Source: Patagioenas fasciata
Lineage: Eukaryota
Direction: 5' to 3'
DNA length: 64,000 nt
NCBI RefSeq assembly: GCF_037038585.1
Contig: NC_092556.1
Coordinates: 514,619-578,618 of the forward strand
The first letter of the stretch is position 1; the number at the start of each line of letters is the position of its first letter. Both the position numbers and the translations under genes were made by a program. Positions 129-53,956 of the stretch are shown piece by piece. The notes under the pieces were generated by a model. The model saw only the letters and a list, made by a program, of their open reading frames with translations. It did not search any database and had not been told where the DNA came from.

Positions 129-220
129 TCAGCCCAGCACGTGGGCCACGGGCACCTTGGCGGGGCGGCCGCCGTGGGGCACGACCAGGGCGTCGGGGTC
201 GGCGTCGTCGGGGGGGAGGC
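129..220 (-). CDS. SPNS1: SPNS1 (spinster homolog 1, MFS transporter) exon 12 (terminal coding exon, includes stop)
   Basis: Minus-strand acceptor ggttgcccccag|GCC (AG = plus 221-222). Phase-1 exon encodes (G)LPPDDADPDALVVPHGGRPAKVPVAHVLG*, with stop TGA at plus 129-131. It aligns with the human SPNS1 C-terminus STDDRIVVPQRGRSTRVPVASVLI (human sequence recalled from memory). Confidence 0.8.
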
Positions 221-237
221 CTGGGGGCAACCAGGGG

Positions 238-1898
238 TGGTTGGTTAATGGGGGCAATGGGGGCAATGGGGACAATGGGGGTGATGGGGCAATGGGGGTA
301 ATGGGGGCAATGGGGGTAATGGGGCAATGGGGGTAATGGGGCAATGGGGGGAATGGGGGCAATGGGGGCAATGGGGGTAATGGGGCAATGGGGGCAATGG
401 GGGCAATGGGGCAATGGGGGTCAATGGGGCAATGGGGGCAATGGGGGTAATGGGGGCAATGGGGGCAATGGGGGCAATGGGGCAATGGGGGTCAATGGGG
501 GCAATGGGGGCAATGGGGTCAATGGGGGTAATGGGGCAATGGGGGTAATGGGGGCAATGGGGGCAATGGGGGCAATGGGGCAATGGGGGGCAATGGGGCA
601 ATGGGGGCAATGGGGGCAATGGGGCAATGGGGGCAATGGGGGCAATGGGGGCAATGGGGCAATGGGGGCAATGGGGCAATGGGGCAATGGGGTCAATGGG
701 GCAATGGGGCAATGGGGGCAATGGGGGTAATGGGGGCAATGGGGCAATGGGGCAATGGGGGCAATGGGGGCAATGGGGGCAATGGGGGCAATGGGGCAAT
801 GGGGACAATGGGGGCAGTGGGGGCAATGGGGGCAATGGGGGCAATGGGGGCAATGGGGCAATGGGGGCAATGGGGGCAATGGGGCAATGGGGGCAATGGG
901 GGCAATGGGGGTAATGGGGCAATGGGGGCAATGGGGCAATGGGGGCAATGGGGGCAATGGGGCAATGGGGGTGATGGGGACAATGGGGGCAATGGGGGCA
1001 ATGGGGTCAATGGGGCCATGGGGACAATGGGGGCAATGGGGTCAATGGGGCAATGGGGGCAATGGGGGCAATGGGGCAATGGGGCAATGGGGTCAATGGG
1101 GCAATGGGGACAATGGGGGCAATGGGGGTAATGGGGCAATGGGGGCAATGGGGGCAATGGGTATCAATGGGGGGCAATGGGGATCAATGGGGGGCAATGG
1201 GGGCAATGGGGGCAATGGGGACAATGGGGGTAATGCGGACAATGGGGACAATGGGGGTAATGGGGACAATGGGGACAATGGGGGTAATGGGGGTAATGGG
1301 GCAGTGGGGGCAATGGGGGCAATGGGGGGCAGTGGGGGCAATGGGGCAATGGGGGCAATGGGGACAATGGGGCAATGGGGGCAATGGGGCAATGGGGCAA
1401 TGGGGGCAATGGGGACAATGGGGCAATGGGGGCAATGGGGCAATGGGGGCAATGGGGGCAATGGGGACAATGGGGGCAATGGGGGTGATGGGGGCAATGG
1501 GGACAATGGGGGTAATGGGGACAATGGGGACAATGGGGGCAATGGGGCAATGGGGCAATGGGGACAATGGGGACAATGGGGGTAATGGGGGTAATGGGGC
1601 AATGGGGGTCAATGGGGCAATGGGGGCAATGAGGCAATGGGGTCAATGGGATCAATGGATCGATGGGGTCAATGGGGATCAATGGGGATCAATGGGGGTC
1701 AATGGGTCAATGGGGGTCAATGGGGATCAATGGGGGGCAATGGGGGCAATGGGGTCAATGGGGGCAATGGGGGCAATGGGGACAATGGGATCAATGGGTC
1801 AATGGGGTCAATGGGGATCAATGGGGATCAATGGGGGTCAATGGGTCATTGGGGTCAATGGGGTCAATGGGGTCAATGGGGTCAATGGGGGGGGGGTG
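238..1898. repeat. Tandem minisatellite (GGGGCAATGG / GGGGTCAATGG family, ~10-11 bp unit) filling SPNS1 intron 11
   Basis: Direct reading shows hundreds of near-identical units of gggggcaatgg, with variants gggacaatgg, ggggtaatgg and ggggtcaatgg. Confidence 0.9.
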
Positions 1899-1914
1899 GT
1901 CACGTGCCCCTCAC

Positions 1915-2083
1915 CTCGCGCCTCCCGCAGCGCTCGCGCGCGGTCCCGCGGGAGCGTGAGGGCGGATCCCAGGAAGGCCCCGCCCCCCAGGGCGGCCACG
2001 AAGGGGCAGAGCAGCAGCGCGCGGCCCAGCGCCTGCGCAGAGCGCAGCCACGAGGGGGCGGGGCCACGCAGCGCGTCACTCAG
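1915..2083 (-). CDS. SPNS1: SPNS1 exon 11
   Basis: Acceptor ccccgccccttcccccag|CTG (AG = plus 2084-2085). Encodes LSDALRGPAPSWLRSAQALGRALLLCPFVAALGGGAFLGSALTLPRDRARALREAR(G). Donor GCGAG|gtgagg. Matches human ...SEFRALQFSLMLCAFVGALGGAAFLGTAIFIEADRRRAQ. Confidence 0.85.
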
Positions 2084-2780
2084 CTGGGGGAAGGGGCGGG
2101 GTCACGGCGGCGCCGGCCAATCAGAGCGCCCCGGGGAGCCCCCCCTCCCACCCGGGTCCTAGCGCCGCCCGCTGGGGCCCTCCCGGTGCCCCCCAGTTCA
2201 TCCCGGTGCCCCCCAGCTCATCCCAGTGCCCCCCAGTCCCTCCCAGTGCTCCCCAGTTCATCCCGGTGCTCCCCAGTTCATCCCAGTGCCCCCCAGCTCA
2301 TCCCAGTGCCCCCCAGTCCCTCCCAGTGCTCCCCAGTTCATCCCGGTGCTCCCCAGTTCATCCCAGTGCCCCCCAGCTCATCCCAGTGCCCCCCAGTCCC
2401 TCCCAGTGCTCCCCAGTTCATCCCGGTGCTCCCCAGTTCATCCCAGTGCCCCCCAGTTCATCCCAGTGCCCCCCAGTCCCTCCCAGTGCTCCCCAGTTCA
2501 TCCCGGTGCCCCCCAGTTTGGTTCCCGGTCCCTCCCAGTGTCCCCCAGTCCCTCCCAGTGCCTCCCAGTCCCTCCCAGTTCAAACCAGTCCATACCATTC
2601 CCAGCAGGTAGGGGCTCCCCACGTCCCCCAGTCCCTCCCAGTCCCCCCAGTTCAAACCAGTCCCTCCCAGTCCATCCCAGTCCGCACCATTCCCAGCAGG
2701 TAGGGGCTCCCCGCGTCCCCCAGTCCCTCCCAATTCAAACCAGTCCCTCCCAGTTCAAACCAGTCCATCCCAGTCCGCAC

Positions 2781-2879
2781 CATTCCCAGCAGGTAGGGGC
2801 TCCCCGCGTCCCCCAGCAGATGCGACGCCCCCACCTGCAGGGCCGAGGCCGTCGAGCGGCGCCAGGGGGGGACCACGGT
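2781..2879 (-). CDS. SPNS1: SPNS1 exon 10
   Basis: Acceptor ccattgtccccag|ACC. Encodes [33 protein letters not shown]. Donor GGAATG|gtgcgg. Matches human [33 protein letters not shown]. Confidence 0.85.
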
Positions 2880-3420
2880 CTGGGGACAATGGGGACAATG
2901 GGGACAATGGGTCAGGGGGGTCCCCAGGGCCCCCCAATGGCACCCAGCGGGGACCACGGTCTGGGGACAATGGGGACAATGGGGACAATGGGTCAGGGGG
3001 GTCCCCAGGGCCCCCCAATGGCACCCAGGGGGGACCACGGTCTGGGGACAATGGGGACAATGGGGACAATGGATCAGGGGGGTCCCCAGGGCCCCCCAAT
3101 GGCACCCAGGGGGGACCACGCTCTGGGGACAATGGGGACAATGGGGACAATGGGTCAGGGGGGTCCCCAGGGCCCCCCAATGGCACCCAGGGGGGACCAC
3201 GGTCTGGGGACAATGGGGACAATGGGGACAATGGGTCAGGGGGGTCCCCAGGGCCCCCCAATGGCACCCAGGGGGGACCACGCTCTGGGGACAATGGGGA
3301 CAATGGGGACAATGGGTCAGGGGGGTCCCCAGGGCCCCCCAATGGCACCCAGGGGGGACCACGCTCTGGGGACAATGGGGACAATGGGGACAATGGGTCA
3401 GGGGGGTCCCCAGGGCCCCC
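2880..3420. repeat. ~60-bp tandem repeat x9 (gggaccacggtctggggacaatggggacaatggggacaatgggtcaggggggtccccagggccccccaatggcacccag) in SPNS1 intron 9
   Basis: Nine near-identical units are read directly. The satellite abuts the exon 10 acceptor. Confidence 0.85.
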
Positions 3421-4276
3421 AATGGCACCCAGGGGCCCACAAGTGTCCCCATTGCCCCCATTGTCCCCATTGCCCCCATTACCCCCATTGCCCCCCCTGT
3501 CCCCATTGCCCCCCATGTCCCCATCACCCCCATTGTCCCCATTATCCCCATTACCCCCACTACCCCCATTGTCCCCATTGTCCCCGTTACCTCCATCACC
3601 TCCATTGTCCCCAATGCCCCCATTGCCCCCATCGCCCCCATTGCCCCCATTGTCCCCATTGCCCCCATCACCCCCAATGTCCCCATCACCCCCAATGCCC
3701 CCCATTGCCCCCATTGCCCCCCAATGCCCCCAATGTCCCCATTGTCCCCAATGTCCCCATTGTCCCCATCACCCCCAATGTCCCCATCACCCCCAATGCC
3801 CCCCATTGTCCCCATTGCCCACCATGTCCCCACTGCCCCCATTGCCCCATTACCCCCAATATCTCCATTGCCCCCCATGTCCCCATTGTCCCCATTGTCC
3901 CCATTACCCCCATCGCCCCCATCACCCCCCATTGTCCCCATCGCCCCCATTGCCCCCCATGTCCCCATCACCTCCATTGTCCCCATTGTCCCCATTGTCC
4001 CCATCACCCCCAATGTCCCCATCGCCCCCATGTCCCCATTGTCCCCATTGCCCCCCATGTCCCCATCACCCCCATTGTCCCCATTGCCCCCCATGTCCCC
4101 ATCACCCCCATCACTCCCATTGCCCCCAATTCCCCATTGCCCCCCATGTCCCCACCGCCCCCATGTCCCCATTGCCCCCATCACCCCCATTGCCCCCATC
4201 ACCCCCATCGTCCCCATCACCCCCATCGCCCCCACTGCCCCCATGTCCCCATTGTCCCCTGTCCCCCTGTCCCCAC

Positions 4277-4342
4277 CAGCAGGATGTCGGCCACGATGGC
4301 CCAGTTCAGGGACAGCAGCGTCTCCCCCACGAAGATGAAAAC
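4277..4342 (-). CDS. SPNS1: SPNS1 exon 9
   Basis: Acceptor cctgtccccag|GTT. Encodes VFIFVGETLLSLNWAIVADILL. Donor CTGCTG|gtgggg. Matches human IFIFIGETLLSMNWAIVADILL. Confidence 0.85.
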
Positions 4343-5092
4343 CTGGGGACAGGGTCACGGGCTCAGGGGTCACGGGGTCACTGGGGTCACGGGGTCACTG
4401 GGGTCACTGTGTCCCCATAACCCCATAAACACTTCAAACCCCATAACCCCCCATACCCCCCCACCCCCATAACCCCAATACCCCCATGACCCCATAGACC
4501 CCATAACCCCCCATACCCCCATGACCCCCATAACCCCCTATGACCCCCATACCCCCATACCCCCAACACCCCCCATACCCCCATGACCCCCATACCCCCA
4601 ACACCCCCCATACCCCCATGACCCCCATACCCCCAACACCCCCCATACCCCCATGCCCCCCATAACCCCCTATGACCCCCATACCCCCAATACCCCCATA
4701 CCCCCATGCCCCCCATAACCCCCTATGACCCCCATACCCCCAACACCCCCCATACCCCCATGACCCCCATAACCCCCTATGACCCCCATACCCCCAACAC
4801 CCCAATACCCCCCATACCCCCATGACCCCATAACCCCCTATGACCCCCATACCCCCATACCCCCATGACCCCCATAACCCCTATGACCCCCATACCCCCA
4901 ACACCCCAATACCCCCCATACCCCCATGACCCCATAACCCCCTATGACCCCCATACCCCCAACACCCCCCATACCCCCATGACCCCCATGACCCCTATGA
5001 CCCCCATACCCCCAACACCCCCCATACCCCCATGACCCCCATGACCCCCATGACCCCCATGACCCCGCGCCCCCCACGTCCCCCCCACTCAC

Positions 5093-5282
5093 GTATGCGG
5101 CGGGGGGGCAGGGCCGGGCGCACAGCAGCGCCAGCAGCAGGCAGGGGGCGGCCCCCAGCACCCCTCCCCCGCACAGCAGGGGGTCCCCCCGCGGGGTCAG
5201 GGGGCGGAGCTTGCGCGACAGCCCCGCCCCCAACCCCACCCCCAGCACCCCCGACACGCACGTCAGCAGCCCGAACAGCAGG
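5093..5282 (-). CDS. SPNS1: SPNS1 exon 8
   Basis: Acceptor cctttgcccccag|C. Encodes (S)[63 protein letters not shown]. Donor GCATAC|gtgagt. Matches human [39 protein letters not shown]... Confidence 0.85.
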
Positions 5283-6897
5283 CTGGGGGCAAAGGGCAAA
5301 GGTCAGGGGGGGTCATGGGGGTCCAGGGGGTTATGGGGGGTTATGGGGTCACGGGGTTATGGGGCTTATAGGGGGTTATAGGGGTCATGGGGGTTATGGA
5401 GGTCATGGGAGTCAGGGGGGTCATGGGGGTCATAGGGGTCGGGGGGTCATGGGGGTCATAGGGGGTCATGGGGATGTGGGGTTATGGGGTCATAGGGGGT
5501 TATGGGGGTCATGGGGGTCATAGGAGTCAGTGGGTCATGGGGGTCATAAGGGGTCATGGGGGTCATAGGGGGTCATAAGGGTCAGGGGGGTTATGGGGGT
5601 CATGGGGGTCAGGGGGTCATGGGGGTCAGGGGGTCATGGGGGTCATAGGGGGTCATGGGGGTCAGGGGGATGTGGGGTTATGGGGGTTATGGGGGTTATG
5701 GGGGTTATGGGGTCATGGGGATGGGGGTTATAGGGTCATGGGGTCATAGGGGTCACGGGTCACCCCATTATCCCAATGTCCCCATTGTCCCCATTGCCCC
5801 CATTGCCCCCATTAACCCCATTGTTCCCATTACCCCATCACCCCCATCACCCCATTGTCCCTGCTGCCCCCATTGTCCCCATTGACCCCATTATCTCAAT
5901 GTCCCCATTGCCCCCATTGTCCCCATCACCCCCATTATCCCCATCACCCCACTGTCCCCTTGACCCCCATTGTCCCCATTGCCTCCATTGGCCCCATTGG
6001 CCCGATTGTCCCATTAACCCATCATCCCCATTACCCCATTGCCCCCATTATCCCATTGCCCCCATTGTCCCATTGTCCCCATTACCCCAATGTCCCCATT
6101 GCTCCCATTGTCCCATTGCCCCCGTCACCCCCATCCCCCCATCACCCCCATTGTCCCCATCACCCCCATTGTCCCATCACCCCCATTGTCTCATCACCCC
6201 CATCACCCCCATTGTCCCCATCCCCCCCATCCCCCCCATTGTCCCCATCACCCCCATTGTCCCATTGTCCCCATCACCCCCATCACCCCCATTCCCCCAT
6301 CACCCCCATTGTCCCATCACCCCCATCGCCCCCATTGTCCCATCCCCCCCATCACCCCCATCCCCCCCATTGTCCCATCCCCCCCATCACCCCCATTGTC
6401 CCCATCCCCCCCATTGTCCCATCACCCCCATCCCCCCCATTCCCCCATCACCCCCATTGTCCCATCACCCCCATTGTCCCATCACCCCCATTGTCCCCAT
6501 CCCCCCATCACCCCCATCACCCCCATTGTCCCCATCCCCCCCATCCCCCCCATTGTCCCCATCACCCCCATTGTCCCATTGTCCCCATCACCCCCATCAC
6601 CCCCATTCCCCCATTGTCCCATTGTCCCATCACCCCCATTGTCCCATCACCCCCATTGTCCCCATCACCCCCATCACCCCCATTGTCCCATCCCCCCCAT
6701 CACCCCCATTGTCCCATTGTCCCCATCACCCCCATTGTCCCCATCCCCCCCATTGTCCCATCACCCCCATTCCCCCATCACCCCCATTGTCCCCATCCCC
6801 CCCATTGTCCCATCACCCCCATTCCCCCATCACCCCCATTGTCCCCATCCCCCCCATTGTCCCCATCCCCCCCATTGTCCCCCCCCCCCCGTGTCAC

Positions 6898-7053
6898 CTC
6901 TCGTCGCCGTGGCAGCGCGGCCCCCGCTGGCAGGGGGGCAGGGCCCCGGTGGCCACGCGGCAGCGGCGCAGGAACGCGGGGGCCCAGAGGGCGAGGGCCC
7001 CGGTGACAAAGGACACGGCGGTGAAGCCCAGCGAGGACAGCACCAGCGTGCGG
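6898..7053 (-). CDS. SPNS1: SPNS1 exon 7
   Basis: Acceptor ccgtgtcccag|C. Encodes (N)RTLVLSSLGFTAVSFVTGALALWAPAFLRRCRVATGALPPCQRGPRCHGDE(S). Donor GACGAGAG|gtgaca. Matches human NPSFVLSSLGFTAVAFVTGSLALWAPAFLLRSRVVLGETPPC. Confidence 0.85.
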
Positions 7054-9412
7054 CTGGGACACGGGGACACCCCCGTCACACCCTGGGGACACCCTGGGGA
7101 CACCCTGGGGACACCCTGGGGACACCCCCGTCACACCCTGGGGACACCCCCGTCACACCCTGGGGACACCCCCGGTGACAAAGGACACGGCGGTGAAGCC
7201 CAGCGAGGACAGCACCAGCGTGCGGCTGGGGACATGGGGACAGCCCCGTCACACCCTAGGGACACCCTGGGGACACCCTGGGGACATGGGGACACCCCTG
7301 TCACACCCCTGGGGACACCCTGGGGACACCCTGGGGACACCCCTGTCACACCCTGGGGACACCCTGGGGACACCCTGGGGACACCCCTGTCACACCCTGG
7401 GGACACCCTGGGGACACCCTGGGGACACCCCCGTCACACCCTGGGGACACCCTGGGGACACCCCCGTCACACCCTGGGGACACCCTGGGGACACCCCTGT
7501 CACACCCCATGGGACATGGGGACACCCCTGGGGACATGGGGACACCCCCTGGGGACACCAATGAAACCCTGGGGACACCGCATGGGACACGGGGACACCC
7601 CTGGGGACACCCCTGTCACACCCCATGGCACCCCATGGGACATGGGGACACCCCTGGGGACATGGGGACACCCCCAGGGACACCCCATGGGACTCGGGGA
7701 CACCCCATAGGGACACAGGGACACCCCCGGGGATGCCCCATTGCACCCCATGGGACACGAGGACACCCCCAGGGACAACCCTGGGGACATGGGGACACCC
7801 CATAGGGACACAGGGACACCCCCAGGGACACCCCATGGCACCCATGGGACACGGGGACACCCCTGGTGACACCCCATTGCACCCCATGGGACATGGGGAC
7901 ACCCCTGGGGACACCGCATGGCACCCCATGGGACACAGGGACACCCCATGGGACTCGGGGACACCCCTGGGGACACGGGGACACCCCTGGGGACACCAAT
8001 GAAACCCTGGGGGTGCCAGGTCTACCCCATGGGGACACCAGGTCTACCCAGGGGGACCTGTCCCCATGTCCCCCCATGTCCCCATGTCCCCCATGTCCCC
8101 CATTGTCCCCATATCCCCCAATCCCCCCATAGCCCCCAATCCCCCCATATCCCCATAGCCCCCAATGTCCTCACATCCCCATTGTCCCCATATCCCCCAA
8201 TGTCCCCATGTCCCCCCATAGTCCCCCATTGTCCCCGTATCCCCCAATATCCCCAATCCCCCCACATCCCCCCAATGTCCCCACATCCCCCCATGTCCCC
8301 CATTGTCCCCAATGTCCCCACATCCCCCCATGTCCCCCATTGTCCCCAATGTCCCCACATCCCCCCATGTCCCCCATTGTCCCCAATGTCCCCACATCCC
8401 CCCATGTCCCCATAGCCCCCAATGTCCCCATATCCCCCCATATCCCCAATGTCCCCAATGTCCCCCCATGTCCCCCAATCCCCCCATATCCCCCAATGTC
8501 CCCATGTCCCCCATTGTCCCCATGTCCCCATTATCCCCATAGCCCCCAATGTCCCCACATCCCCCCCTGTCCCCCATTGTCCCCATATCGCCTCATGTCC
8601 CCCTATCCCCCAATGTCCCCAATGTCCCCCATTGTCCCCATATCCCCCATTGTCCCCAATCCCCCCACATCCCCCATTGTCCCCATATCCCCCATTGTCC
8701 CCACATCCCCCCATGCCCCCCAATGTCCCCACACCCCCCAATGTCCCCCAATGTCCCCATTGTCCCCAATGTCCCCACACCCCCCAATGTCCCCATTGTC
8801 CCCATTGTCCCCATTGCCCCCATTGTCCCCAATGTCCCCAATGTCCCCAATGTCCCCATTGCCCCCATTGCCCCCAATGTCCCCAATGTCCCCATTGTCC
8901 CCAATGTCCCCAATGTCCCCACACCCCCCAATGTCCCCACACCCCCCATTGTCCCCAATGTCCCCATTGTCCCCAATGTCCCCACACCCCCCAATCCCCC
9001 CACATCCCCCAATGTCCCTCAATCCCCTCAATGTCCCCCATGTCCCCCATTGTCCCCAATCCCCCCATGCCCCCCATTGTCCCCACATCCCCCCATGCCC
9101 CCCATTGCCCCCATTGCCCCATTGCCCCCATTGTCCCCAATGTCCCCACACCTCCCAATGTCCCCATTGTCCCCACTGTCCCCACTGTCCCCAATGTCCC
9201 CATTGTCCCCAATGTCCCCAATGTCCCCAATGTCCCCCATTGTCCCCAATGTCCCCACACCCCCCAATGTCCCCATTGTCCCCACTGTCCCCACTGTCCC
9301 CAATGTCCCCATTGTCCCCGATGTCCCCAATGTCCCCACACCCCCCATTGCCCCCATTGTCCCCATTGTCCCCAATGTCCCCCAATGTCCCCAGTGTCCC
9401 CCCTGTCCTCAC

Positions 9413-9555
9413 TTGGTGGCCAGGCGGCGCAGGTCGCTGGCCCAGTGCGGGTGGGGGAGGGGCGTGGCGGGGGGCAGCTCCAGGCCCCCCCGGGGGGGGT
9501 CGCTCACCAGCGTCACCAACAGCGCCAGGGCCACCAACCCCAGCACCGGGGTCAC
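9413..9555 (-). CDS. SPNS1: SPNS1 exon 6
   Basis: Acceptor cccgtgtccccag|GTG. Encodes VTPVLGLVALALLVTLVSDPPRGGLELPPATPLPHPHWASDLRALAT(N). Donor ACCAA|gtgagg. Matches human VTPGLGVVAVLLLFLVVREPPRGAVERHSDLPPLNPTSWWADLRALAR. Confidence 0.8.
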
Positions 9556-10654
9556 CTGGGGACACGGGGGGGTCACATGGGGTCACATGGGGGGGTCACA
9601 TGGGGACGGGGGGGGCACGTGGGGGGGGGGCACGTGGGGGGGGGTCACCTGGGGACACGGGGGGGTCACCTGGGGTCACATGGGGGGGTCACATGGGGAC
9701 GGGGGGGGCACGTGGGGGGGGGTCACCTGGGGACACGGGGGGGTCACCTGGGGGGGTCACATGGGGACGGGGGGGGCACGTGGGGGGGTCACCTGGGTCA
9801 TCTGGGGACATGGGGGGGGCACGTGGGGTCACATGGGGGGGTCACATGGGGACGGGGGGGGCACGTGGGGGGGGGGTCACCTGGGGTCACCTGGGGACAC
9901 GGGGGGGGTCACATGGGGATGGGGGGGGCACGTGGGGGGGTCACCTGGGGTCACCTGGGGACATGGGGGGGGGCACGTGGGGTCACATGGGGGGGTCACC
10001 TGGGGCCACCTGGGGTCACCTGGGGACACGGGGGGGCACGTGGGGACGGGGGGGGCACGTGGGGGGGTCACCTGGGGTCATCTGGGGACATGGGGGGGGG
10101 CACGTGGGGTCACATGGGGGGGGTCACCTGGGGACATGGGGGGGTCACCTGGGGGCACCTGGGGATGGGGGGGGGGGGCACATGGGGGGGTCACCTGGGG
10201 TCACCTGGGGACATGGGGGGGCACGTGGGGGCACATGGGGACGGGGGGGGCACGTGGGGGGGGCACGTGGGGACTTGGCGGGGTCACCTGGGGTCACATG
10301 GGGACCCTGTTGAGGACACTGGGGGGGTTTGGGGACCCTGCTGGGGACACTGGGGACCCTTTTGGGGACATTGGGGGGGTTTGGGGACCCTGTTGGGGAC
10401 ACTGGGGACCCTTTTGGGGACATTGGGGGGGTTTGGGGACCCTGTTGGGGACACTGGGGGGTTTGGGGTCACTGTTGGGGACACTGATGGGGACACTGGG
10501 GACCCTGTTGGGGACACTGGGGGGGTTTGGGGACCCTGTTGGGGACCCTGTTGGGGTCACTGATGGGGACACTGGGGACACTGGGGGGGTTTGGGGACAC
10601 TGATGGGGACACTGGGGACATTGGGGCCACTGGGGCCGTGGGTCCCGGGCTCAC

Positions 10655-10721
10655 CCTGAGGGCCCAGCGCCAGTCGGAGGCCACGTCCTTCACCTTGGCC
10701 CCGATGATGTAACCGAGCCCG
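10655..10721 (-). CDS. SPNS1: SPNS1 exon 5
   Basis: Acceptor catgtccccag|C. Encodes (S)GLGYIIGAKVKDVASDWRWALR. Donor CTCAGG|gtgagc. Matches human [23 protein letters not shown]. Confidence 0.85.
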
Positions 10722-13134
10722 CTGGGGACATGGGGACAGCATGGGGACATCAGCGGGGACATGGGGACATCAGCGGGGACATGGGGACATCAGCGGGGAC
10801 ATGGGGACATTGGGGACATGGGGACATTGGGGGCAATGGGGACATGGGGACATTGGGGGCAATGGGGACATCAGCGGGGACATGGGGACATTGGGGACAT
10901 TGGGGACATTGGGGACATGGGGACAATGGGGACATTGGGGACACCATGGGGACATCAGTGGGGACACGGGGACCCCACAATCCCCACCCCCGTGTCCCCA
11001 TGTCCCCATCACCCCCATGGCCCCCAACGTCCCCATAGCCCCCATTGTCCCCAATGTCCCCACTGATGTCCCCATCACCCCCCCATGTCCCCACAACCCC
11101 CAATGTTCCCCCATGTCCCCACATCCCCCCACAACCCCCAATGTCCCTCTGTCCCTCAATGTCCCCATGTCCCCCCACATCCCCAATGTCCCCATTGCCC
11201 CCAATGTCCCATCACCGCCATTGTCCCCAATGTCCCCAATGTCCCCATCACCCCCATCACCCCCATTGTCCCCACTGCCCCCATTGTCCCCATTGCCCCC
11301 AATGCCCCCATTGTGCCCAATACCCCCCACCGCCCCCATTGACCCCCATATTCCCCCAATGTCCCCATTGTTCCCGTCACCCCCACCACCCCCAATGTCC
11401 CCAATGCCCCCAATGTCCCCCCTCCCCCATCACCCCCATTGTCCCCATCACCCCATCCCCCCATTGCCCCCACTGCCCCCATCCCCCCCCACCCCCATCC
11501 CCCCCATCCCTCTCACCGCCCCATCCCCCCATTGCCCCCCATCCCCCCCAATGTCCCCACGTCCCCCATCCCCCCCCCATCCCCCCATCCCCCCCACTGC
11601 CCCCATTGCCCCCCCCACCCCCATCCCCCCCCCCACCCCCAATGCCCCCATTGTCCCCATCCCCCCCATCACCCCCATCCCCCCATTGTCCCCATCCCCC
11701 CCACCACCCCCATCCCCCCATTGCCCCCATTGCCCCCATTGTCCCCCATTACCCCCCCACCCCCATCCCCCCATCCCCCCCACTGCCCCCATCCCCCCCC
11801 CACCCCCATCCCCCCCATTGCCCCCATTGCCCCCCATCCCCCCCACTGCCCCCATCCCTCCCCCACCCCCATCCCCCCATTGCCCCCATTGCCCCCCATC
11901 CCCCCCACTGCCCCCATCCCCCCCACCACCCCCATCCCCCCATTGCCCCCATTGTCCCCCATTACCCCCCCACCCCCATCCCCCCCAATGTCCCCATTGT
12001 CCCCATTGCCCCATCCCCCCCCACCCCCATCCCCCCAATGTCCCCAATGCCCCCATCCCCCCATTGCCCCCAATGTTCCCATTGCCCCCCATTACCCCCC
12101 CACCCCCATCCCCCCCAATGTCCCCATGTCCCCCATCCCCCCCCACCCCCATCCCCCCATTACCCCCAATGTCCCCATTGCCCCCTCACCCCCAATGTCC
12201 TCATCCCCCCATTGTCCCCATCCCCCCAATGTCCCCATTGCCCCCAATGTCCCCATCCCCCTCCCCACCCCCATCTCCCCCATTGTTCCCAATGTCCCCA
12301 TCCCCCCCATCCCCCTCCCCCTCCCCCCCATCCCCCCCATTGCACCCCCCACCCCCATCCCCCCATCCCCCCCATTGCCCCCATCCCCCTCAATGCCCCC
12401 ATTGTCCCCATCCCCCCCCCCACCCCCATCCCCCCCAATGCCCCCAATGTCCCCATGCCCCCATCACTCCCATCCCCCCATCCCCCCCATTGCCCCCCCC
12501 ACCCCCATCCCCCCAATGCCCCCAATGTCCCCATCCCCCCCCATCCCCCTCCCCCTCCCCCCCATCCCCCCCATTGCACCCCCCACCCCCATCCCCCCAT
12601 TGTCCCCATTGCCCCCCATTACCCCCCCACCCCCATCCTGCCCAATGTCCCCATCCCCCCCCACCCCCATCCCCCCATTACCCCCAACGTCCCCATTGCC
12701 CCCTCACCCCCATTGCCCCCATCCCCCCCCAACCCCCCCAATGTCCCCCTCCCCCCCCATCACTCCCATCCCCCCATTGCCCCCATTGCCCCCCATTGCC
12801 CCCCACCCCTATCCCCCCCATTGCTCCCAATGTCCCCATCCCCCCCCCCCTCCCCCCCATCCCCCCATTGCCCCCCATCCCCCCCAATGTCCCCACGTCC
12901 CCCATCCCCCCACCACCCCCATCCCCCCCCCCACCCCCATTGCCCCCATTGTCCCCATCCCCCCACCCCCCCCATCCCCCCACCCCCCCCACCGCCCCAT
13001 CCCCCCACCGCCCCCATCCCCCCCATCCCCCCATCCCCCCCATTACCCCCAATGTCCCCCCCCATCCCCACCCCCCCACTGTCCCCATCCCCCCCACTGT
13101 CCCCCATCCCCCCCCCCAATGTCCCCGCTGTCAC

Positions 13135-13286
13135 CTCCCCAGCGGGACCCCCACGTAGAAGGCGGCGAGCGCGGGGGTGCGGGCGGGGCCGGCGCTGACG
13201 TCAGCGATGAGGGCGGGGGCCAGCGTGCTGAACCCCCCCTCCCCCACCCCCACCAGCGCCCGGCCCAGCAGCAGCAGCCAGAACCC
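13135..13286 (-). CDS. SPNS1: SPNS1 exon 4
   Basis: Acceptor ccgccctttgcgcag|GGG. Encodes GFWLLLLGRALVGVGEGGFSTLAPALIADVSAGPARTPALAAFYVGVPLG(S). Donor GGGGAG|gtgaca. Matches human [51 protein letters not shown]. Confidence 0.85.
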
Positions 13287-14745
13287 CTGCGCAAAGGGCG
13301 GGGTCAGCGGGGGCACGGGGGCACGGGGTCACAGGGGGTCATGGGGTCACAGGGGTCATGGGGTCATAGGGGGCGTGGGGGTCACAGGGGGTCATGGGGT
13401 CACAGGGGCTCACAGGGGGTCACAGGGGGTCAGGGGGTCACAGGGGGTCATGGGGTCATAGGGGGGCGTGGGGTCACAGGGGGCATGGGGTCATATGGGG
13501 TCACGGGGGTCATGGGGTCACAGGGGGTCACAGGGGGTCATGGGGTCACAGGGGGTCAGGGGGTCACAGGGGCTCACAGGGGGTGTGGGGTCACAGGGGG
13601 TCACAGGGGTCATGGGGTCACAGGGGGGCGTGGGGTCACAGGGGGTCATGAGGTCACAGGGGGTCACAGGGGGTCATGGGGGGCAGGGGTCACCGGGGTC
13701 ACGGGGTCAGGGGCTCACAGGGGGTCACAGGGGGTCACGGGGGGCAGGGGTCACACGGGTCATGGGGGCAGGGGGTCACAGGGGGTCATGGGGTCACAGG
13801 GGGTCAGGGGGTCACAGGGGGTCATGGGGTCACAGGGGGTCAGGGGGTCACAGGGGGTCACGGGGGGCAGGGGTCACAGGGGACATGGGGTCAAGGGGTC
13901 ACAGGGGGGCACGGGGTCACAGGGGGGCATGGGGTCATATGGGGTCACGGGGGTCATGGGGTCAGGGGGTCAAAGGGGGTCAGGGGATCACAGGGGTCAT
14001 GGGGTCATGGGGTCACAGGGGGGCGTGGGGTCACAGGGGGTCATGAGGTCACAGGGGGTCATGGGGTCACAGGGGGTCATGGGGTCACAGGGGGTCACAG
14101 GGGTCACGGTCAGGGGGTCACAGGGGGTCAGGGGGTCACAGGGGGGTGTGGGGTCACAGGGGGTCACAGGGGGTCATGGGGTCATAGGGGGGCACGGGGT
14201 CACATAGGGTCACAGGGGGTCATGGGGTCACAGGGTGTCAGGGGGTCACAGGGGGTCACCGGGGTCACGGGGTCAGGGGGTCACACCCACCCCACAGCCC
14301 CCCATGTCCTACCCCATTGTGCCCCACACCCACCCCATACCCACCCCATGTCCCCCCATGTCCCGCCCCACTGTGCCCCACACCCACCCCACACCCACCC
14401 CACAGCCCCCCATGTTCCGCCCCATTGTGCCCCACACCCGCCCCACACCCACCCCACAGCCCCCCATGTCCCGCCCCACTGTGCCCCACACCCACCCCAC
14501 ACCCACCCCACAGCCCCCCATGTCCCGCCCCACTGTGCCCCACATCTGCCCCACACCCACCCCATAGCCCCCCATGTCCCGCCCCATTGTGCCCCACACC
14601 CACCCCACAGCCCCCCATGTCCCCCCATGTCCCGCCCCACTGTGCCCCACATCTGCCCCACACCCACCCCATAGCCCCCCATGTCCCCCCATGTCCCGCC
14701 CCACCGTGCCCCACATCTGCCCCACACCCGCCCCACACCCACCTG

Positions 14746-14882
14746 GGGGGGCACGAAGCTGCTGGCCAGGGTGGCCCCGCCCCATAGGGCGCTGGCCCCA
14801 CAGAGCAGGAGCTTCCGGTTCCAGCGATCGCCCAGGAACCCGAAGAGGGGGGCGAGCAGGAGGTAACTGAGGATGAACACTG
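14746..14882 (-). CDS. SPNS1: SPNS1 exon 3
   Basis: Acceptor ccacggattctcag|TG, which lies inside the last unit of the adjacent 46-bp satellite. Encodes (V)FILSYLLLAPLFGFLGDRWNRKLLLCGASALWGGATLASSFVPPQ. Donor CCCCAG|gtgggt. Matches human [44 protein letters not shown]. Confidence 0.8.
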
Positions 14883-17300
14883 AGAATCCGTGGGTCAGAC
14901 CCACACGTGTGGGGCACGAACCCACCCAGCAGCCATGGGTCAGACCCACACGTGTGGGGCAGGAACCGACACTGAGAATCCATGGGTCAGACCCACACGT
15001 GTGGGGCACAAACCCACCCAGCAGCCATGGGTCAGACCCACACGTGTGGGGCAGGAACCCACCCAGCAGCCATGGGTCAGACCCACACGTGTGGGGCAGG
15101 AACCCACCCAGCAGCCATGGGTCAGACCCACACGTGTGGGGCAGGAACCCAAACCCAGCATCCATGGGTCAGACCCACACGTGTGGGGCAGGAACCCACC
15201 CAGCAGCCATGGGTCAGACCCACACGTGTGGGGCAGGAACCGACAGTGAGCAGCTATGGGTCAGACCCACACGTGTGGGGCAGGAACCCAAACCCAGCAT
15301 CTATGGGTCAGACCCACACGTGTGGGGCAGGAACCAACACTGAGAATCCATGGGTCAGACCCACACGTGTGGGGCAGGAACCCAAACCCAGCATCCATGG
15401 GTCAGACCCACACGTGTGGGGCAGGAACCCAAACCCAGCAGCCATGGGTCAGACCCACACGTGTGGGGCAGGAACCGACACTGAGAATCCATGGGTCAGA
15501 CCCACACGTGTGGGGCAGGAACCCAAACCCAGCATCCATGGGTCAGACCCACACGTGTGGGGCAGGAACCCACCCAGCATCTATGGGTCAGACCCACACA
15601 TGTGGGGCAGGAACCAACACTGAGAATCCATGGGTCAGACCCACACGTGTGGGGCAGGAACCCAAACCCAGCAGCCATGGGTCAGACCCACACGTGTGGG
15701 GCAGGAACCAACCCAGCAGCCATGGGTCAGACCCACACGTGTGGGGCAGGAACCCACCCAGCAGCCATGGGTCAGACCCACACGTGTGGGGCAGGAACCG
15801 ACAGTGAGCAGCTATGGGTCAGACCCACACGTGTGGGGCAGGAACCCAAACCCAGCATCCATGGGTCAGACCCACACGTGTGGGGCAGGAACCCAAACCC
15901 AGCATCCATGGGTCAGACCCACACGTGTGGGGCAGGAACCCAAACCCAGCAGCCATGGGTCAGACCCACACGTGTGGGGCAGGAACCGACACTGAGAATC
16001 CATGGGTCAGACCCACACGTGTGGGGCAGGAACCCAAACCCAGCATCCATGGGTCAGACCCACACGTGTGGGGCAGGAACCAACACTGAGAATCCATGGG
16101 TCAGACCCACACGTGTGGGGCACGAACCCACCCAGCAGCCATGGGTCAGACCCACACGTGTGGGGCAGGAACCCAAACCCAGCATCCATGGGTCAGACCC
16201 ACACGTGTGGGGCAGGAACCAAGACTGAGAATCCATGGGTCAGACCCACACGTGTGGGGCAGGAACCAACACTGAGAATCCATGGGTCAGACCCACACGT
16301 GTGGGGCAGGAACCGACACTGAGCAGCTATGGGTCAGACCCACACGTGTGGGGCAGCAACCCAAACCCAGCATCTATGGGTCAGACCCACACGTGTGGGG
16401 CAGGAACCCACCCAGCAGCCATGGGTCAGACCCACACGTGTGGGGCAGGAACCGACAGTGAGCAGCTATGGGTCAGACCCACACGTGTGGGGCAGGAACC
16501 CACCCAGCAGCCATGGGTCAGACCCACACGTGTGGGGCAGGAACCGACAGTGAGTAGCTATGGGTCAGACCCACACGTGTGGGGCAGGAACCCAAACCCA
16601 GCAGCCATGGGTCAGACCCACACGTGTGGGGCAGGAACCGACAGTGAGCAGCTATGGGTCAGACCCACACGTGTGGGGCAGGAACCCACCCAGCAGCCAT
16701 GGGTCAGACCCACACGTGTGGGGCAGGAACCCACCCAGCATCTATGGGTCAGACCCACACGTGTGGGGCAGGAACCCACCCAGCATCTATGGGTCAGACC
16801 CACACGTGTGGGGCAGGAACCGACAGTGAGCAGCTATGGGTCAGACCCACACGTGTGGGGCAGGAACCGACCCAGCAGCCATGGGTCAGACCCACACGTG
16901 TGGGGCAGGAACCCACCCAGCAGCCATGGGTCAGACCCACACATGTGGGGCAGGAACCAACACTGAGAATCCATGGGTCAGACCCACACGTGTGGGGCAG
17001 CAACCCAAACCCAGCATCTATGGGTCAGACCCACACATGTGGGGCAGGAACCAACACTGAGAATCCATGGGTCAGACCCACACGTGTGGGGCAGGAACCA
17101 ACCCAGCATCCATGGGTCAGACCCACACGTGTGGGGCAGGAACCAACACTGAGAGTGCGGGGGTCAGACCCACACGTGTGGGGCAGGAACCCACCCAGCA
17201 TCTATGGGTCAGACCCACACGTGTGGGGCAGGAACCCACCCAGCATCTATGGGTCAGACCCACACGTGTGGGGCAGGAACCAACACTGAGCAGCTACGGG
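14883..17300. repeat. 46-bp palindromic E-box satellite, ~52 copies (cccacacgtgtggggcaggaacccacccagcagccatgggtcagac), in SPNS1 intron 2
   Basis: Every unit contains the perfect 16-bp palindrome CCCCACACGTGTGGGG with a central CACGTG E-box. The array is followed at 17300-17620 by a related ~60-bp repeat carrying the same palindrome. Confidence 0.9.
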
Positions 17301-17619
17301 TCAGACCCACACGTGTGGGGCACTATGGGGCAGAGCTGTCTGCAGGAGCTCTATGGGGGTGATGTGTGGGTCAGCCCCACACGTGTGGGGCGCTATGGGG
17401 CAGAGCTGTCTGCAGGAGCTCTATGGGGGTGATGTGTGGGTCAGCCCCACACGTGTGGGGCGCTATGGGGCAGACCTGTCTGCAGGAGCTCTATGGGGGG
17501 GTGATGTGTGGGTCAGCCCCACACGTGTGGGGCGCTATGGGGCAGAGCTGTCTGCAGGAGCTCTATGGGGGGGTGATGTGTGGGTCAGCCCCACACGTGT
17601 GGGGCGCTATGGGGCAGAC

Positions 17620-17685
17620 CTGTCTGCAGGAGCCCGGATTTCCCGTCATCGATGCCGAAATAATCCTCAATATCCGGGAGAACAC
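17620..17685 (-). CDS. SPNS1: SPNS1 exon 2
   Basis: Acceptor gtctgtgccccccag|GT. Encodes (G)VLPDIEDYFGIDDGKSGLLQT(V). Donor CAGACAG|gtctgc (weak). Matches human GVLPDIEQFFNIGDSSSGLIQT. Confidence 0.8.
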
Positions 17686-18463
17686 CTGGGGGGCACAGAC
17701 CCATAAGTGACCCATAAGTGACCCATAAGTGACCCATAAGTGACCCATAAGTGACCCACAGCGACCCATAGAGACCCATAACCGACCAAAAATTGACCCA
17801 CAAGTGACCCATGAATCTCCCATAGTGACCCCCTGACCCATAAGTGACCCACAGCAACCCCCTAACTGACCCATAGTGACCCATAAGAGACCCATAGTGA
17901 CCCATAAGTAACCCAAAGTGACCCATAACTGACCCATAAGTGACCCATAAGTGACCCAAAGTGACCCATAGCAACCCCATAAGTGACACATAGCGACCCA
18001 TAAGTGACCCATAAGTGACCCAAAGTGACCCATAGCAACCCCATAACTGACCCATAGCAACCCCATAAGTGACCCATAGAGACCCATAAGTGACCCCATA
18101 GCAACCCCATAAGTGACCCATAGTGACCCATAAGTGACCCAAAGTGACCCCATAAGCGACCCATAAGTGACCCATAAGTGACCCATAACTGGCCCTTAGT
18201 GACCCATAAGTGACCTATAGAGACCCCCGTAACTGACCCATAGAGACCCATAAGTGACCCCGTTTTGCCCCCCCTGCCCCACATCTCCCCCCACATCTCC
18301 CCACACCCCGCCCCCCATCTGCCCCATATCTGCCCCACATCCCACCCCACATCTCCCCCATTCTCTCCCCATATCCCACCCCATTTACTCCCCACATCTC
18401 CCCACACCCCGCCCCACACCCCGACCCCCACATCTCCCCACATCCTGCCCCACATCTCCCCAC

Positions 18464-18659
18464 CAGCCAGTGTGAACCGGTCCATGTAGTTGAGCAGGTT
18501 GACGTAGCACAGCACGGCCAGCGTGCGCCGGGGCGCCGTGGGGCCGCTATGGGGCGCTGTGGGGCCGCTATGGGGCGCCGTGGGGCTGGGGGGGGCGCTG
18601 TGGGGCAGCCCCTCCCCCCCCGTGTCGTCCGCGCGGTGAAGGAGCGGCCCCGACGCCAT
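18464..18659 (-). CDS. SPNS1: SPNS1 exon 1 (start codon)
   Basis: ATG is the reverse complement of plus 18657-18659, in the context ccccATGG. Encodes MASGPLLHRADDTGGEGLPHSAPPSPTAPHSGPTAPHSGPTAPRRTLAVLCYVNLLNYMDRFTLA(G). Donor CTGGCTG|gtgggg. Matches human ...RSALIVAVLCYINLLNYMDRFTVAG. There is no in-frame stop upstream, so the start codon is inferred from homology and context. Confidence 0.7.
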
Positions 18660-32160: not shown

Positions 32161-32183
32161 ACATCCCGCCCCACAGATCCCAC

Positions 32184-35463: not shown

Positions 35464-38400
<2,937 letters not shown>

Positions 38401-38407
38401 CACCCAC

Positions 38408-39096: not shown

Positions 39097-39099
39097 CTG

Positions 39100-42580
<3,481 letters not shown>

Positions 42581-53940: not shown

Positions 53941-53956
53941 ATTTTGGGTCCCCAAC

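What the first reader, a model, noticed from the sequence alone, without database searches (positions are those of the whole stretch)
2590..2830. Exon 10 3' end plus its splice donor is triplicated as part of a ~92-bp satellite unit
The sequence cattcccagcaggtaggggctcccc(a/g)cgtcccccag occurs three times in tandem, at ~2592, 2689 and 2781. On the minus strand each copy reads ...[11 protein letters not shown] followed by the donor |gtgcgg. Only the copy adjacent to the rest of exon 10 (2781-2879) is in a complete-exon context. The satellite has therefore amplified across an exon-intron boundary and created two extra donor-bearing pseudo-exon ends immediately downstream in the intron. This could drive cryptic splicing, and it is a snapshot of satellite expansion seeded from genic sequence.
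Basis: seen in the sequence. Interest (0 to 1): 0.55.

Follow-up and report, generated by a model that had tools for sequence, protein, structure and literature searches.

The report
Exon-edge copies in pigeon SPNS1 intron
In a pigeon's SPNS1 gene, an intronic tandem repeat has copied the last 36 bases of exon 10 and its splice donor twice into the next intron; this is a real and recent event, but it belongs to a kind already described in birds ("exon stuttering") and in human minisatellites.

Summary
The last 36 nt of a 99-nt minus-strand exon (2781-2879), plus its GT donor, occur three times at 92/93-nt spacing. None are expected by chance.

The exon is coding exon 10 of SPNS1. RefSeq isoform X1 of Patagioenas fasciata (band-tailed pigeon) maps at 100% identity to 12 GT-AG exons in the window.

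- An 81-nt array reiterates exon 10's acceptor module and first 17 nt seven times.
- The exon 2 donor is reiterated five times.
- The exon 7 acceptor is present twice.

Columba livia and Caloenas nicobarica have single-copy exon 10 junctions, yet they carry the same 10-nt G-rich satellite at the start of intron 10. The event is therefore specific to the Patagioenas lineage. The exon edge was captured into an existing satellite. The units are bounded by a 9-nt motif (CTGGGGGAC) shared by the exon and the satellite monomer.

This matches "exon stuttering" on chicken dot chromosomes (Hron et al. 2026), whose gene list includes chicken SPNS1. It also matches human boundary-spanning minisatellites such as F7 IVS7.

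Use of the decoy sites in splicing could not be tested. Human precedents differ, but those with long monomers favour mostly silent decoys.

Verdict: new member of a known kind, modest interest.

The parts
129..18659 (-). SPNS1 (protein spinster homolog 1) coding region with 12 coding exons. E1 18659-18464, E2 17685-17620, E3 14879-14743, E4 13286-13135, E5 10721-10655, E6 9555-9413, E7 7053-6898, E8 5282-5093, E9 4342-4277, E10 2879-2781, E11 2083-1915, E12 220-132, then the stop codon at 131-129.
   Evidence: XP_071657412.1 (P0121, Patagioenas fasciata SPNS1 isoform X1, 510 aa) maps at 100% identity. Each of the 11 introns has a unique GT-AG solution.
2781..2879 (-). Exon 10: 99 nt, 33 codons, phase 0-0. 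It encodes [33 protein letters not shown], including the conserved Spinster GDAGSPY motif. The acceptor AG is at 2880-2881 and the authentic donor GT at 2779-2780 (ATG|GTGCGG).
   Evidence: (PDB SPNS1 9boi, E 4.6e-8; SPNS2 structures).
2724..2816 (-). Unit C of the 92/93-nt array (93 nt). It holds the real last 36 nt of exon 10 (2781-2816), the authentic donor, and 55 nt of intron 10 satellite. It begins with CTGGGGGAC.
2632..2723 (-). Unit B (92 nt), the first decoy. The exon-like 36 nt lie at 2688-2723 and are identical to exon 10's end. The decoy donor GT is at 2686-2687 (ATG|GTGCGG). It is identical to the authentic junction over 52 nt. Splicing here would add 93 nt, or 31 codons, in frame with no stop ([31 protein letters not shown]).
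   Evidence: (71.9 bits).
2549..2631 (-). Unit A (83 nt), the second and distal decoy. The exon-like 36 nt lie at 2596-2631 with one mismatch (Ala to Val). The decoy donor GT is at 2594-2595 (ATG|GTATGG). Read-through to this site meets a TGA stop.
   Evidence: (63.9 bits).
2540..2548 (-). Terminal CTGGGGGAC, a satellite monomer that closes the array. The same 9-mer starts every unit (+ strand GTCCCCCAG at 2540, 2623, 2715 and 2808). This gives an A-X-A-X-A-X-A layout, where A is a microhomology shared by exon codons Leu-Gly-Asp and the satellite.
   Evidence: The sequence following this 9-mer matches the exon at 15 of 18 positions by my reading of the output.
2181..2582 (-). Remainder of the intron 10 satellite, with a 20/80-nt periodicity built from 10-nt monomers of the type GGGACTGGGR on the gene strand. 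It is G-rich on the sense strand.
   Evidence: period 80, 5.0 copies, 93% matches; period 20, 20 copies. (15 G4-type motifs on the sense strand of intron 10 and 0 on the antisense strand).
2866..3435 (-). 81-nt array of 7.0 copies at 98% identity that starts inside exon 10's 5' end. On the gene strand each unit carries a CTGAC (one unit CTGAT) branch-site-like motif, a ~28-nt pyrimidine tract, CAG, and then the first 17 nt of exon 10 (ACCGTGGTCCCCCCTGG). The authentic acceptor is the last of the seven. Decoy exon-like 17-mers lie at 2944-2960, 3025-3041, 3106-3122, 3187-3203, 3268-3284 and 3349-3365. The unit is 27 codons long and open in the exon frame. The array is bounded by CCCCTGG.
   Evidence: (7 matches, 0 expected).
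17298..17633 (-). 72-nt array of 4.7 copies at 97% identity that reiterates the last 14 nt of exon 2 plus its donor. The authentic copy is followed by 4 decoys. Three of the decoys have GT changed to CT.
7170..7225 (-). Exact 56-nt copy of exon 7's 5' end, preceded by a CAG acceptor. It lies 172 nt upstream of the real exon 7.
   Evidence: (111 bits, 100% identity).

Best explanation
This is a lineage-specific case of "exon stuttering" in the SPNS1 gene of a pigeon, almost certainly Patagioenas fasciata, in a satellite-filled region of dot-chromosome type.

**Shown.**
- Exon 10 is intact.
- Its last 36 nt, its donor and about 56 nt of the adjoining intronic satellite form a 92/93-nt unit present three times.
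- The first unit is the real exon end. The other two lie in intron 10.
- The two other columbid species examined have one copy.

**Inferred origin.** The ancestral intron already began with a G-rich 10-nt satellite. Misaligned pairing occurred between the exon motif CTGGGGGAC and an identical satellite monomer about 92 nt downstream. The mechanism would be replication slippage, or unequal exchange or gene conversion. This duplicated the interval, and a second round gave three units. Such a duplication cannot damage the exon, because the extra partial copies necessarily fall inside the intron. The same process, bounded by CCCCTGG, built the 81-nt array that reiterates exon 10's acceptor seven times. 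It also acted at the exon 2 donor and the exon 7 acceptor.

**Inferred consequence, by precedent only.** The spliceosome uses the innermost sites, as in annotated isoform X1. The decoys are silent or used at a low level. If the first decoy donor were used, it would add 31 residues in frame.
For: **Copies and chance.**

**Gene identity and an intact coding sequence.**

**Formal re-run of the published exon-stuttering screen.** With blastn-short, hits of at least 20 nt and at least 42.1 bits, the results were E10->I10 at 71.9 and 63.9 bits and E7->I6 at 111 bits. All three sources lie at the exon border. The best hit against shuffled introns was 26.3 bits.

**Single-copy orthologous junctions over a shared satellite.**

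**Recurrence at other junctions and in other birds.** Window E2, E7 and E10; Caloenas E3 donor x11, E3 acceptor x5 and E4 acceptor x3; Columba E7 acceptor x3; ostrich E3 acceptor x4 and E4 acceptor x10; none in Grus or Guaruba.

**Microhomology at unit boundaries.**

**Published description of the phenomenon.** PMC12954441 describes it and lists chicken SPNS1 on chr38.

**Precedents for reiterated donors.** PMC1557585 reports only the authentic site used at F7, LMNB2 and PDGF, and the proximal pseudo-sites also used at IFI 6-16 and CBS.
Against: - No transcript data were available, so silence of the decoys is an assumption. Decoy 1 is indistinguishable from the real donor over 52 nt. All six decoy acceptors keep the CTGAC/CTGAT branch-like motif, the pyrimidine tract and the AG (one has CTGAT in place of CTGAC).
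- RefSeq isoform X2 skips exon 10 exactly. That could be an effect of the decoys, although zebra finch isoform X2 skips it too.
- The microhomologies (9, 7 and about 5 nt) lie in low-complexity G/C runs and could be coincidental.
- The identity of decoy 1 to the exon may reflect ongoing conversion rather than recency.
- No reads were available to verify repeat copy numbers in the assembly.
Confidence: 0.8

Rival explanations
1. The decoy sites are used. The reiterated donors and acceptors act as alternative splice sites giving in-frame insertions (+31 aa from decoy donor 1, +27 aa per 81-nt unit), or they compete for U1/U2AF and promote exon 10 skipping (isoform X2).
For: - Decoy donor 1 equals the authentic junction over 52 nt.
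- The 93-nt and 81-nt read-throughs are open in frame.
- All decoy acceptors retain the branch-like motif, pyrimidine tract and AG.
- Isoform X2 lacks exactly exon 10.
- Pseudo-sites are used in human IFI 6-16 and CBS (PMC1557585).
Against: - RefSeq lists only X1 (authentic sites) and X2.
- No protein in 5.8 billion clusters carries the insertion. This is a weak negative.
- Human arrays with long monomers (LMNB2 100 bp, PDGF 81 bp, F7 37 bp) use only the authentic donor.
- Exon 10 skipping is also annotated in zebra finch.
- An insertion next to the conserved GDAGSPY motif would probably be harmful (inference).
Confidence: 0.12
2. Assembly artefact: the copy number or the chimeric exon-satellite units were produced by mis-assembly of a difficult GC-rich repeat.
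For: Only 32% of the window is unique at the 11-mer level. Hron et al. caution that local variation in such regions can be technical.
Against: - The three units are distinguishable: one substitution in the exon-like part, GTGCGG versus GTATGG, and 10-nt monomer indels.
- The same architecture recurs at four junctions here and in independent assemblies of three other species.
- The coding sequence is perfect.
Confidence: 0.05
3. The whole intron 10 satellite was born from exon 10 sequence, which is the first reader's "seeded from genic sequence" taken in the strong sense.
For: - In Columba and Caloenas the exon ends ...CTGGGACTG|GT, which resembles the monomer GGGACTGG.
- Exon codons CTGGGGGACGCGGGGAG resemble two monomers, matching at 15 of 18 positions by my reading.
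- Hron et al. argue that these repeats originate locally.
Against: - The monomer family also fills 39.9-42.2 kb of the window, far from SPNS1.
- The satellite is present in species where the exon end is single copy.
- An 8-nt resemblance in G-rich DNA is weak evidence.
Confidence: 0.1

Closest known systems
Exon stuttering / sequence stuttering on avian dot chromosomes (Hron et al. 2026, Genome Biol Evol, PMC12954441)
   Same: - Direct tandem copies of the lateral part of a coding exon, with its splice site, lie in the adjacent repeat-filled intron.
- The source lies at the exon border and the exon itself is untouched.
- The exon part here is 36 nt, equal to their median of 36.
- There are 2 to 6 extra copies here. 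Their range is 1-44 with a median of 4.
- Expansions are species-specific.
- Chicken SPNS1 (chr38) is on their list of 115 genes.
   Different: - This is a different species (a columbid) and a specific junction not described there.
- Both ends of one 99-nt exon are overrun here.
- Two of the four arrays carry exon parts below their 20-nt detection limit (17 and 14 nt).
- Short motifs shared by exon and satellite bound the units here, whereas that paper leaves the mechanism open and never uses the word microhomology.
- Intraspecific length polymorphism, one of their three main features, could not be tested.
Human minisatellites whose first monomer spans an exon-intron boundary: F7 IVS7 (37 bp), IFI 6-16 intron 2, CBS IVS13, LMNB2 (100 bp), PDGF intron 4 (81 bp) (Borensztajn et al. 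2006, PLoS Genet, PMC1557585)
   Same: The authentic donor is followed by pseudo-donors that are identical or nearly identical, because the repeat unit includes the exon end. The authentic site is the most upstream one.
   Different: - Only 2 decoys are present here, and 36 nt of exon are included, against 4 nt in F7.
- An acceptor-side array is also present.
- No splicing data or allele series are available.
- The context is a GC-rich avian microchromosome.
Tandem exon duplication giving mutually exclusive or alternative exons (from my own knowledge: Kondrashov & Koonin 2001; Letunic et al. 2002)
   Same: A tandem duplication involves exon sequence and splice signals within a gene.
   Different: Whole exons with both splice sites are duplicated in that class. 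Here only 36 of 99 nt plus one splice site are copied, so no complete extra exon exists.

Membership tests
Exon stuttering (Hron et al. 2026) | [quoted passage not shown] | tested here: met
   Two extra direct copies of exon 10's last 36 nt lie in intron 10 at 92/93-nt spacing.
Exon stuttering (Hron et al. 2026) | BLASTn-short hit of exon in the proximal intron, at least 20 nt long, with a bit score above the shuffled-intron control (their threshold is 42.1) | tested here: met
   Hits of 71.9 and 63.9 bits for E10->I10. The best hit against shuffled introns was 26.3 bits.
Exon stuttering (Hron et al. 2026) | Source sequence within about 1 nt of the exon border, so that the copy carries the splice site | tested here: met
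   The hits cover exon positions 64-99 of 99. GT follows each copy.
Exon stuttering (Hron et al. 2026) | The exon itself is unaltered and the coding region intact | tested here: met
   The 510-aa RefSeq protein maps at 100% identity with GT-AG introns.
Exon stuttering (Hron et al. 2026) | Intron heavily covered by simple or tandem repeats; gene on a dot chromosome | tested here: inconclusive
   Repeat coverage is met. Dot-chromosome location is only inferred: chicken SPNS1 is on chr38, and the SPNS1 sequences found here lie on contigs or chromosome records of 0.49, 0.77 and 2.1 Mb. The window's own chromosome is not given.
Exon stuttering (Hron et al. 2026) | Extensive intron length variation among individuals | not testable with these tools
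   No population or read data were available. Between species, the arrays differ completely.
Boundary-spanning minisatellite with reiterated donor (F7 IVS7 type) | The first monomer consists of the exon end plus the intron start, so the donor sequence recurs in the intron | tested here: met
   Unit C is 36 nt of exon plus 57 nt of intron. The donor 9-mer ATG|GTGCGG is repeated exactly once, and once more as ATG|GTATGG.
Boundary-spanning minisatellite with reiterated donor (F7 IVS7 type) | Only the most upstream (authentic) donor is used physiologically | not testable with these tools
   RefSeq isoform X1 uses it and no decoy isoform was found in protein databases, but no RNA data were available.
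Tandem exon duplication (alternative or mutually exclusive exons) | A complete second exon copy with its own acceptor and donor | tested here: not met
   The donor-side copies hold 36 of 99 nt and no acceptor. The acceptor-side copies hold 17 nt.

The most novel reading that the evidence does not exclude
The arrays on both sides of exon 10 affect splicing. Seven complete acceptor modules lie upstream and three donors lie downstream. Under this reading, decoy sites are used at a measurable level and yield in-frame 27-aa and 31-aa modular insertions, a route from intronic repeat to new coding sequence. Alternatively, they sequester splicing factors and cause the exon 10 skipping seen in isoform X2. 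This locus would then be a natural vertebrate test bed for choice among identical 3' and 5' splice sites around one exon.
Probability: 0.12. Interest if true: 0.55.

Novelty: new member of a known kind. Interest (0 to 1): 0.3.

Why it matters
**What it adds.** This is a clean, dated example from outside chicken of a recently named form of avian genome instability.
- The ancestral single-copy state is preserved in two related pigeons.
- The unit boundaries are readable, which points to misalignment between an exon motif and an existing satellite monomer as the initiating step. The paper that described the phenomenon left the mechanism open.
- The process recurs at different SPNS1 junctions in pigeons and ostrich.

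**Practical consequences.**
- Such arrays create perfect decoy splice sites that can mislead gene annotation. The Columba livia LOW QUALITY model uses a decoy acceptor as an extra exon.
- They also provide natural constructs for studying splice-site choice.

**Limits.** The finding does not reveal a new kind of element, and no functional effect was shown.

Tried and rejected
I used a drafted spliced protein instead.
2. Exact look-ups of Patagioenas isoforms X2 and X1 and of zebra finch isoform X2 in the contig index found no record. The window's own public locus and the finch locus could therefore not be fetched.
3. A search of the 5.8-billion-cluster protein database with a hypothetical decoy isoform (81-nt unit + E10 + 93-nt read-through + E11) found only ordinary SPNS homologues. 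None carried the insertion. This gives no support for cryptic isoforms and no independent genomic confirmation.
4. Tandem exon duplication was rejected because the copies are partial.
5. Strong "satellite born from the exon" was rejected, or at least demoted. The satellite predates the event and also occurs at 40-42 kb.
6. Frame preservation as a sign of selection was rejected. Periods of 81, 93 and 72 nt are multiples of 3, but 92, 83, 70 and 172 nt here and about 124 nt in Caloenas are not.
7. The Columba livia model containing a decoy exon was considered as evidence of real decoy use and rejected. It is a LOW QUALITY model in which the decoy is read in another frame. My reading is that it was recruited to compensate for a frame shift.

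Full report
**1. Observation**

The + strand 25-mer CATTCCCAGCAGGTAGGGGCTCCCC occurs exactly three times in the window, at 2596, 2688 and 2781.

A 47-nt gene-strand pattern, CTGGGGGACGCGGGGAGCCCCTACCTGCTGGGAATG|GTGCGGACTGG, matches three places:
- 2770-2816, 0 mismatches
- 2677-2723, 0 mismatches
- 2585-2631, 3 mismatches

No matches appeared in 100 dinucleotide-preserving shuffles. TRF reports 2555-2816 as period 92, 2.8 copies, 86% matches. The finding is real and is not due to chance.

Two minor corrections apply to the distal copy. It is followed by GTATGG rather than GTGCGG, and it carries GCG>GTG, an Ala-to-Val change.

**2. What the exon is**

The minus strand of 2781-2879 translates to [33 protein letters not shown]. 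This matches the same segment of solved SPNS1 and SPNS2 structures (9boi, E 4.6e-8).

A drafted spliced protein found SPNS1 of Patagioenas fasciata as the best hit. Caloenas nicobarica and Columba livia came next.

RefSeq isoform X1 (XP_071657412.1, 510 aa) maps to the window's minus strand at 100% identity. It has 12 coding exons, and each of the 11 introns has a unique GT-AG solution. Exon 10 is 2879-2781, flanked by ...TTGTCCCCAG| and |GTGCGG.

The window is therefore band-tailed pigeon SPNS1 or something indistinguishable from it. "Exon 10" is correct.

Isoform X2 (XP_071657413.1, 477 aa) lacks exactly these 33 residues.

Only 32% of the window is unique at the 11-mer level. The introns are filled with satellites.

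**3. Anatomy of the array**

On the gene strand the array consists of three units. Each unit begins with CTGGGGGAC.

| Unit | Coordinates | Length | Content |
|---|---|---|---|
| C | 2816-2724 | 93 nt | Real exon end and real donor |
| B | 2723-2632 | 92 nt | First decoy |
| A | 2631-2549 | 83 nt | Second decoy |

A further CTGGGGGAC follows at 2548-2540 and runs on into ordinary satellite.

Each unit is made of three parts:
- 36 nt of exon sequence (codons [12 protein letters not shown])
- a GT donor
- about 56 nt of GGGACTGGGR-type 10-nt monomers; the units differ from one another by 10-nt monomer indels

Upstream of the 36 nt, the exon (GCATCTG) and the copies (GGAGGGA) share nothing. The layout is therefore A-X-A-X-A-X-A, where A is a 9-nt motif common to the exon and the satellite monomer. 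The satellite that follows the last A matches the exon at 15 of 18 positions. That count is my reading of the output.

Decoy 1 is identical to the real junction over 52 nt.

**4. The finding extends beyond its coordinates**

I scanned a 24-mer from every splice junction of the gene, allowing up to 3 mismatches. Four junctions are reiterated:

| Junction | Copies |
|---|---|
| E10 donor | 3 |
| E10 acceptor | 7 |
| E2 donor | 5 |
| E7 acceptor | 2 |

*E10 acceptor.* The 81-nt array at 2866-3435 (7.0 copies, 98% matches) begins inside exon 10. Read on the gene strand, each unit carries:
- CTGAC (one unit has CTGAT)
- a pyrimidine tract of about 28 nt
- CAG
- the first 17 nt of exon 10

A 29-nt pattern for this junction gives 7 matches against 0 expected. 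The array is bounded by CCCCTGG, which is present both in the exon and just upstream of the first unit. As a result, 53 of exon 10's 99 nt belong to flanking arrays.

*E2 donor.* The 72-nt array at 17298-17633 repeats the last 14 nt of exon 2 plus its donor. Three of its four decoys have GT changed to CT.

*E7 acceptor.* An exact 56-nt copy of exon 7's 5' end, with its acceptor, lies 172 nt upstream of the real exon 7.

**5. Comparison with relatives**

I fetched the SPNS1 loci of Caloenas nicobarica (L001) and Columba livia (L002).

In both species, exon 10, its donor junction and its acceptor junction are single copy. Yet intron 10 starts with the same G-rich ACTGGG satellite in both. That satellite aligns with the pigeon window over the first ~55 nt of the intron. 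In both species the part of intron 9 upstream of the acceptor is filled with a GGGGACAATGGGG-type satellite.

Three conclusions follow:
- The satellite predates the event.
- The triplication and the 81-nt array arose in the Patagioenas lineage.
- The exon edge was captured into a higher-order unit of an existing satellite.

The same monomer family also fills 39.9-42.2 kb of the window. This argues against the idea that the satellite was born from exon 10.

Other junctions are reiterated in other species:

| Species | Reiterated junctions |
|---|---|
| Caloenas nicobarica | E3 donor x11, E3 acceptor x5, E4 acceptor x3 |
| Columba livia | E7 acceptor x3 |
| Ostrich | E3 acceptor x4, E4 acceptor x10 |
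| Grus japonensis | none |
| Guaruba guarouba | none |

The process is recurrent, local and species-specific.

**6. Mechanism**

*Shown.* The evidence gives the structure, the intact coding sequence, the lineage specificity and the shared boundary motifs.

*Inferred.* Misaligned pairing occurred between an exon-internal G-run motif and an identical satellite monomer. The mechanism would be replication slippage, or unequal exchange or conversion. This duplicated the interval, and further rounds added units. Intron 10 has 15 G4-type motifs on the sense strand and none on the antisense strand. This fits the replication-stress idea raised by Hron et al. but does not test it.

By simple geometry, a tandem duplication with one breakpoint in an exon and the other in the adjacent intron leaves the exon whole. 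The partial copies necessarily fall in the intron. This explains why such events are tolerated.

**7. Consequences for splicing (not tested)**

- Use of decoy donor 1 would add 93 nt, which is 31 codons with no stop.
- Reading on to decoy donor 2 meets a TGA.
- Each upstream 81-nt unit is 27 open codons in the exon frame.

RefSeq lists only X1, which uses the authentic sites, and X2, which skips exon 10. No database protein carries a decoy-derived insertion. Zebra finch isoform X2 also skips exon 10, so the skipping cannot be attributed to the arrays.

Human precedents point both ways (PMC1557585):
- F7, LMNB2 and PDGF use only the most upstream, authentic donor.
- IFI 6-16 and CBS also use the first pseudo-sites.

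I judge mostly silent decoys to be the most likely outcome.

**8. Comparison with what is known**

Hron et al. 2026 (PMC12954441) described "sequence stuttering" and "exon stuttering" on chicken dot chromosomes:
- Lateral exon parts, with their splice sites, are copied in tandem into repeat-filled adjacent introns.
- The screen found 115 genes and 236 introns.
- The exon part has a median length of 36 bp.
- The median number of copies is 4.
- The source sequences lie at the exon border.
- The authors note independent expansions in other birds.
- Chicken SPNS1 (chr38) is on their list.

I re-ran their screen criteria on the window. This gave E10->I10 hits of 71.9 and 63.9 bits and an E7->I6 hit of 111 bits, against a shuffled-intron maximum of 26.3 bits. 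The feature meets every criterion I could test. Two criteria are left open: dot-chromosome location is only inferred, and population polymorphism could not be tested.

It is also a member of the older class of minisatellites that span an exon-intron boundary. It is not a tandem exon duplication.

**9. Verdict**

The finding is real and correctly read, but it is an instance of a known phenomenon.

The increments over what is published are:
- a columbid example with the ancestral state preserved in relatives
- both edges of one small exon overrun by arrays
- readable short-homology boundaries
- recurrence at different SPNS1 junctions across birds

Interest is modest (0.3).

Noticed in passing
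window 17298-17633 (minus strand): A 72-nt array reiterates the last 14 nt of exon 2 plus its donor: the authentic copy and 4 decoys. Three decoys carry GT>CT at the donor and one keeps GT. This may reflect decay or selection against decoy donors, or simply a two-unit higher-order repeat (TRF also reports period 142).
   Followed up: partly
window 7170-7225 (minus strand): An exact 56-nt copy of exon 7's 5' end, preceded by a CAG acceptor, lies 172 nt upstream of the real exon 7. Columba livia has three copies of the same junction (L002 ~18744, 18981, 19285), so this event may be older or recurrent.
   Followed up: partly
window 2881-3478, inversion junction ~3436-3447: The pyrimidine tract of each 81-nt unit (3x CCATTGTCC on the gene strand) is the inverted orientation of the 9-nt satellite GCAATGGGG that fills the rest of intron 9 (3447-4259). 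The arms are 31 nt long and 90-94% complementary. In pre-mRNA these segments could pair and mask acceptors. The inversion may also bear on how the unit arose.
   Followed up: no
L002:18989-19063 (Columba livia): The RefSeq LOW QUALITY model XP_064900342.1 uses a decoy copy of exon 7's acceptor as an extra exon, read in a different frame (QPHAGAVLGLHGHGLCDRGCPYRYTG). This is probably an annotation artefact caused by exon stuttering.
   Followed up: partly
L001:10001-10450 (Caloenas nicobarica): The RefSeq SPNS1 model XP_065511351.1 (667 aa) has an N-terminal extension of about 150 aa (MGRSMGRIYGSALWV...). It is translated satellite upstream of the conserved start MASGPLL.
   Followed up: no
Protein P0065 (Taeniopygia guttata SPNS1 isoform X2): Zebra finch isoform X2 lacks exactly exon 10 (ADILL|LSDALGG), like Patagioenas isoform X2. 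Exon 10 skipping may be a general avian SPNS1 event or a shared annotation behaviour.
   Followed up: no
window 32156-32502 and 38364-39137 (minus strand): Unique islands encode C2H2 zinc fingers (e.g. HVCALCAKEFKNGYNLRRHQATH, HACEMCGKAFRDVYHLKRHQLSH). From memory these look like MAZ, which would fit a region syntenic to human 16p11.2. No search was run.
   Followed up: no
window ~53874-55996 (minus strand): Islands encode peptides such as LMVATHNEASVLQATQRLG and KLVRGAYLESERR. From memory these resemble proline dehydrogenase. No search was run.
   Followed up: no
window 39867-42192: A 2.3-kb array of CCCAGTCCC-type 9-10-nt monomers belongs to the same family, and lies on the same strand, as the intron 10 satellite of SPNS1. 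The monomer is therefore not private to intron 10.
   Followed up: partly
L005 ~4208-4687 and 5001-6129 (Struthio camelus); L001 ~11345-13371 (Caloenas): There are large exon-stuttering arrays at SPNS1 exons 3 and 4 in ostrich (4 and 10 acceptor copies with up to 63 nt of exon) and in Nicobar pigeon (11 donor copies with 55 nt of exon 3). In Caloenas, 3 of the 4 decoy E3 acceptors have lost the AG.
   Followed up: partly
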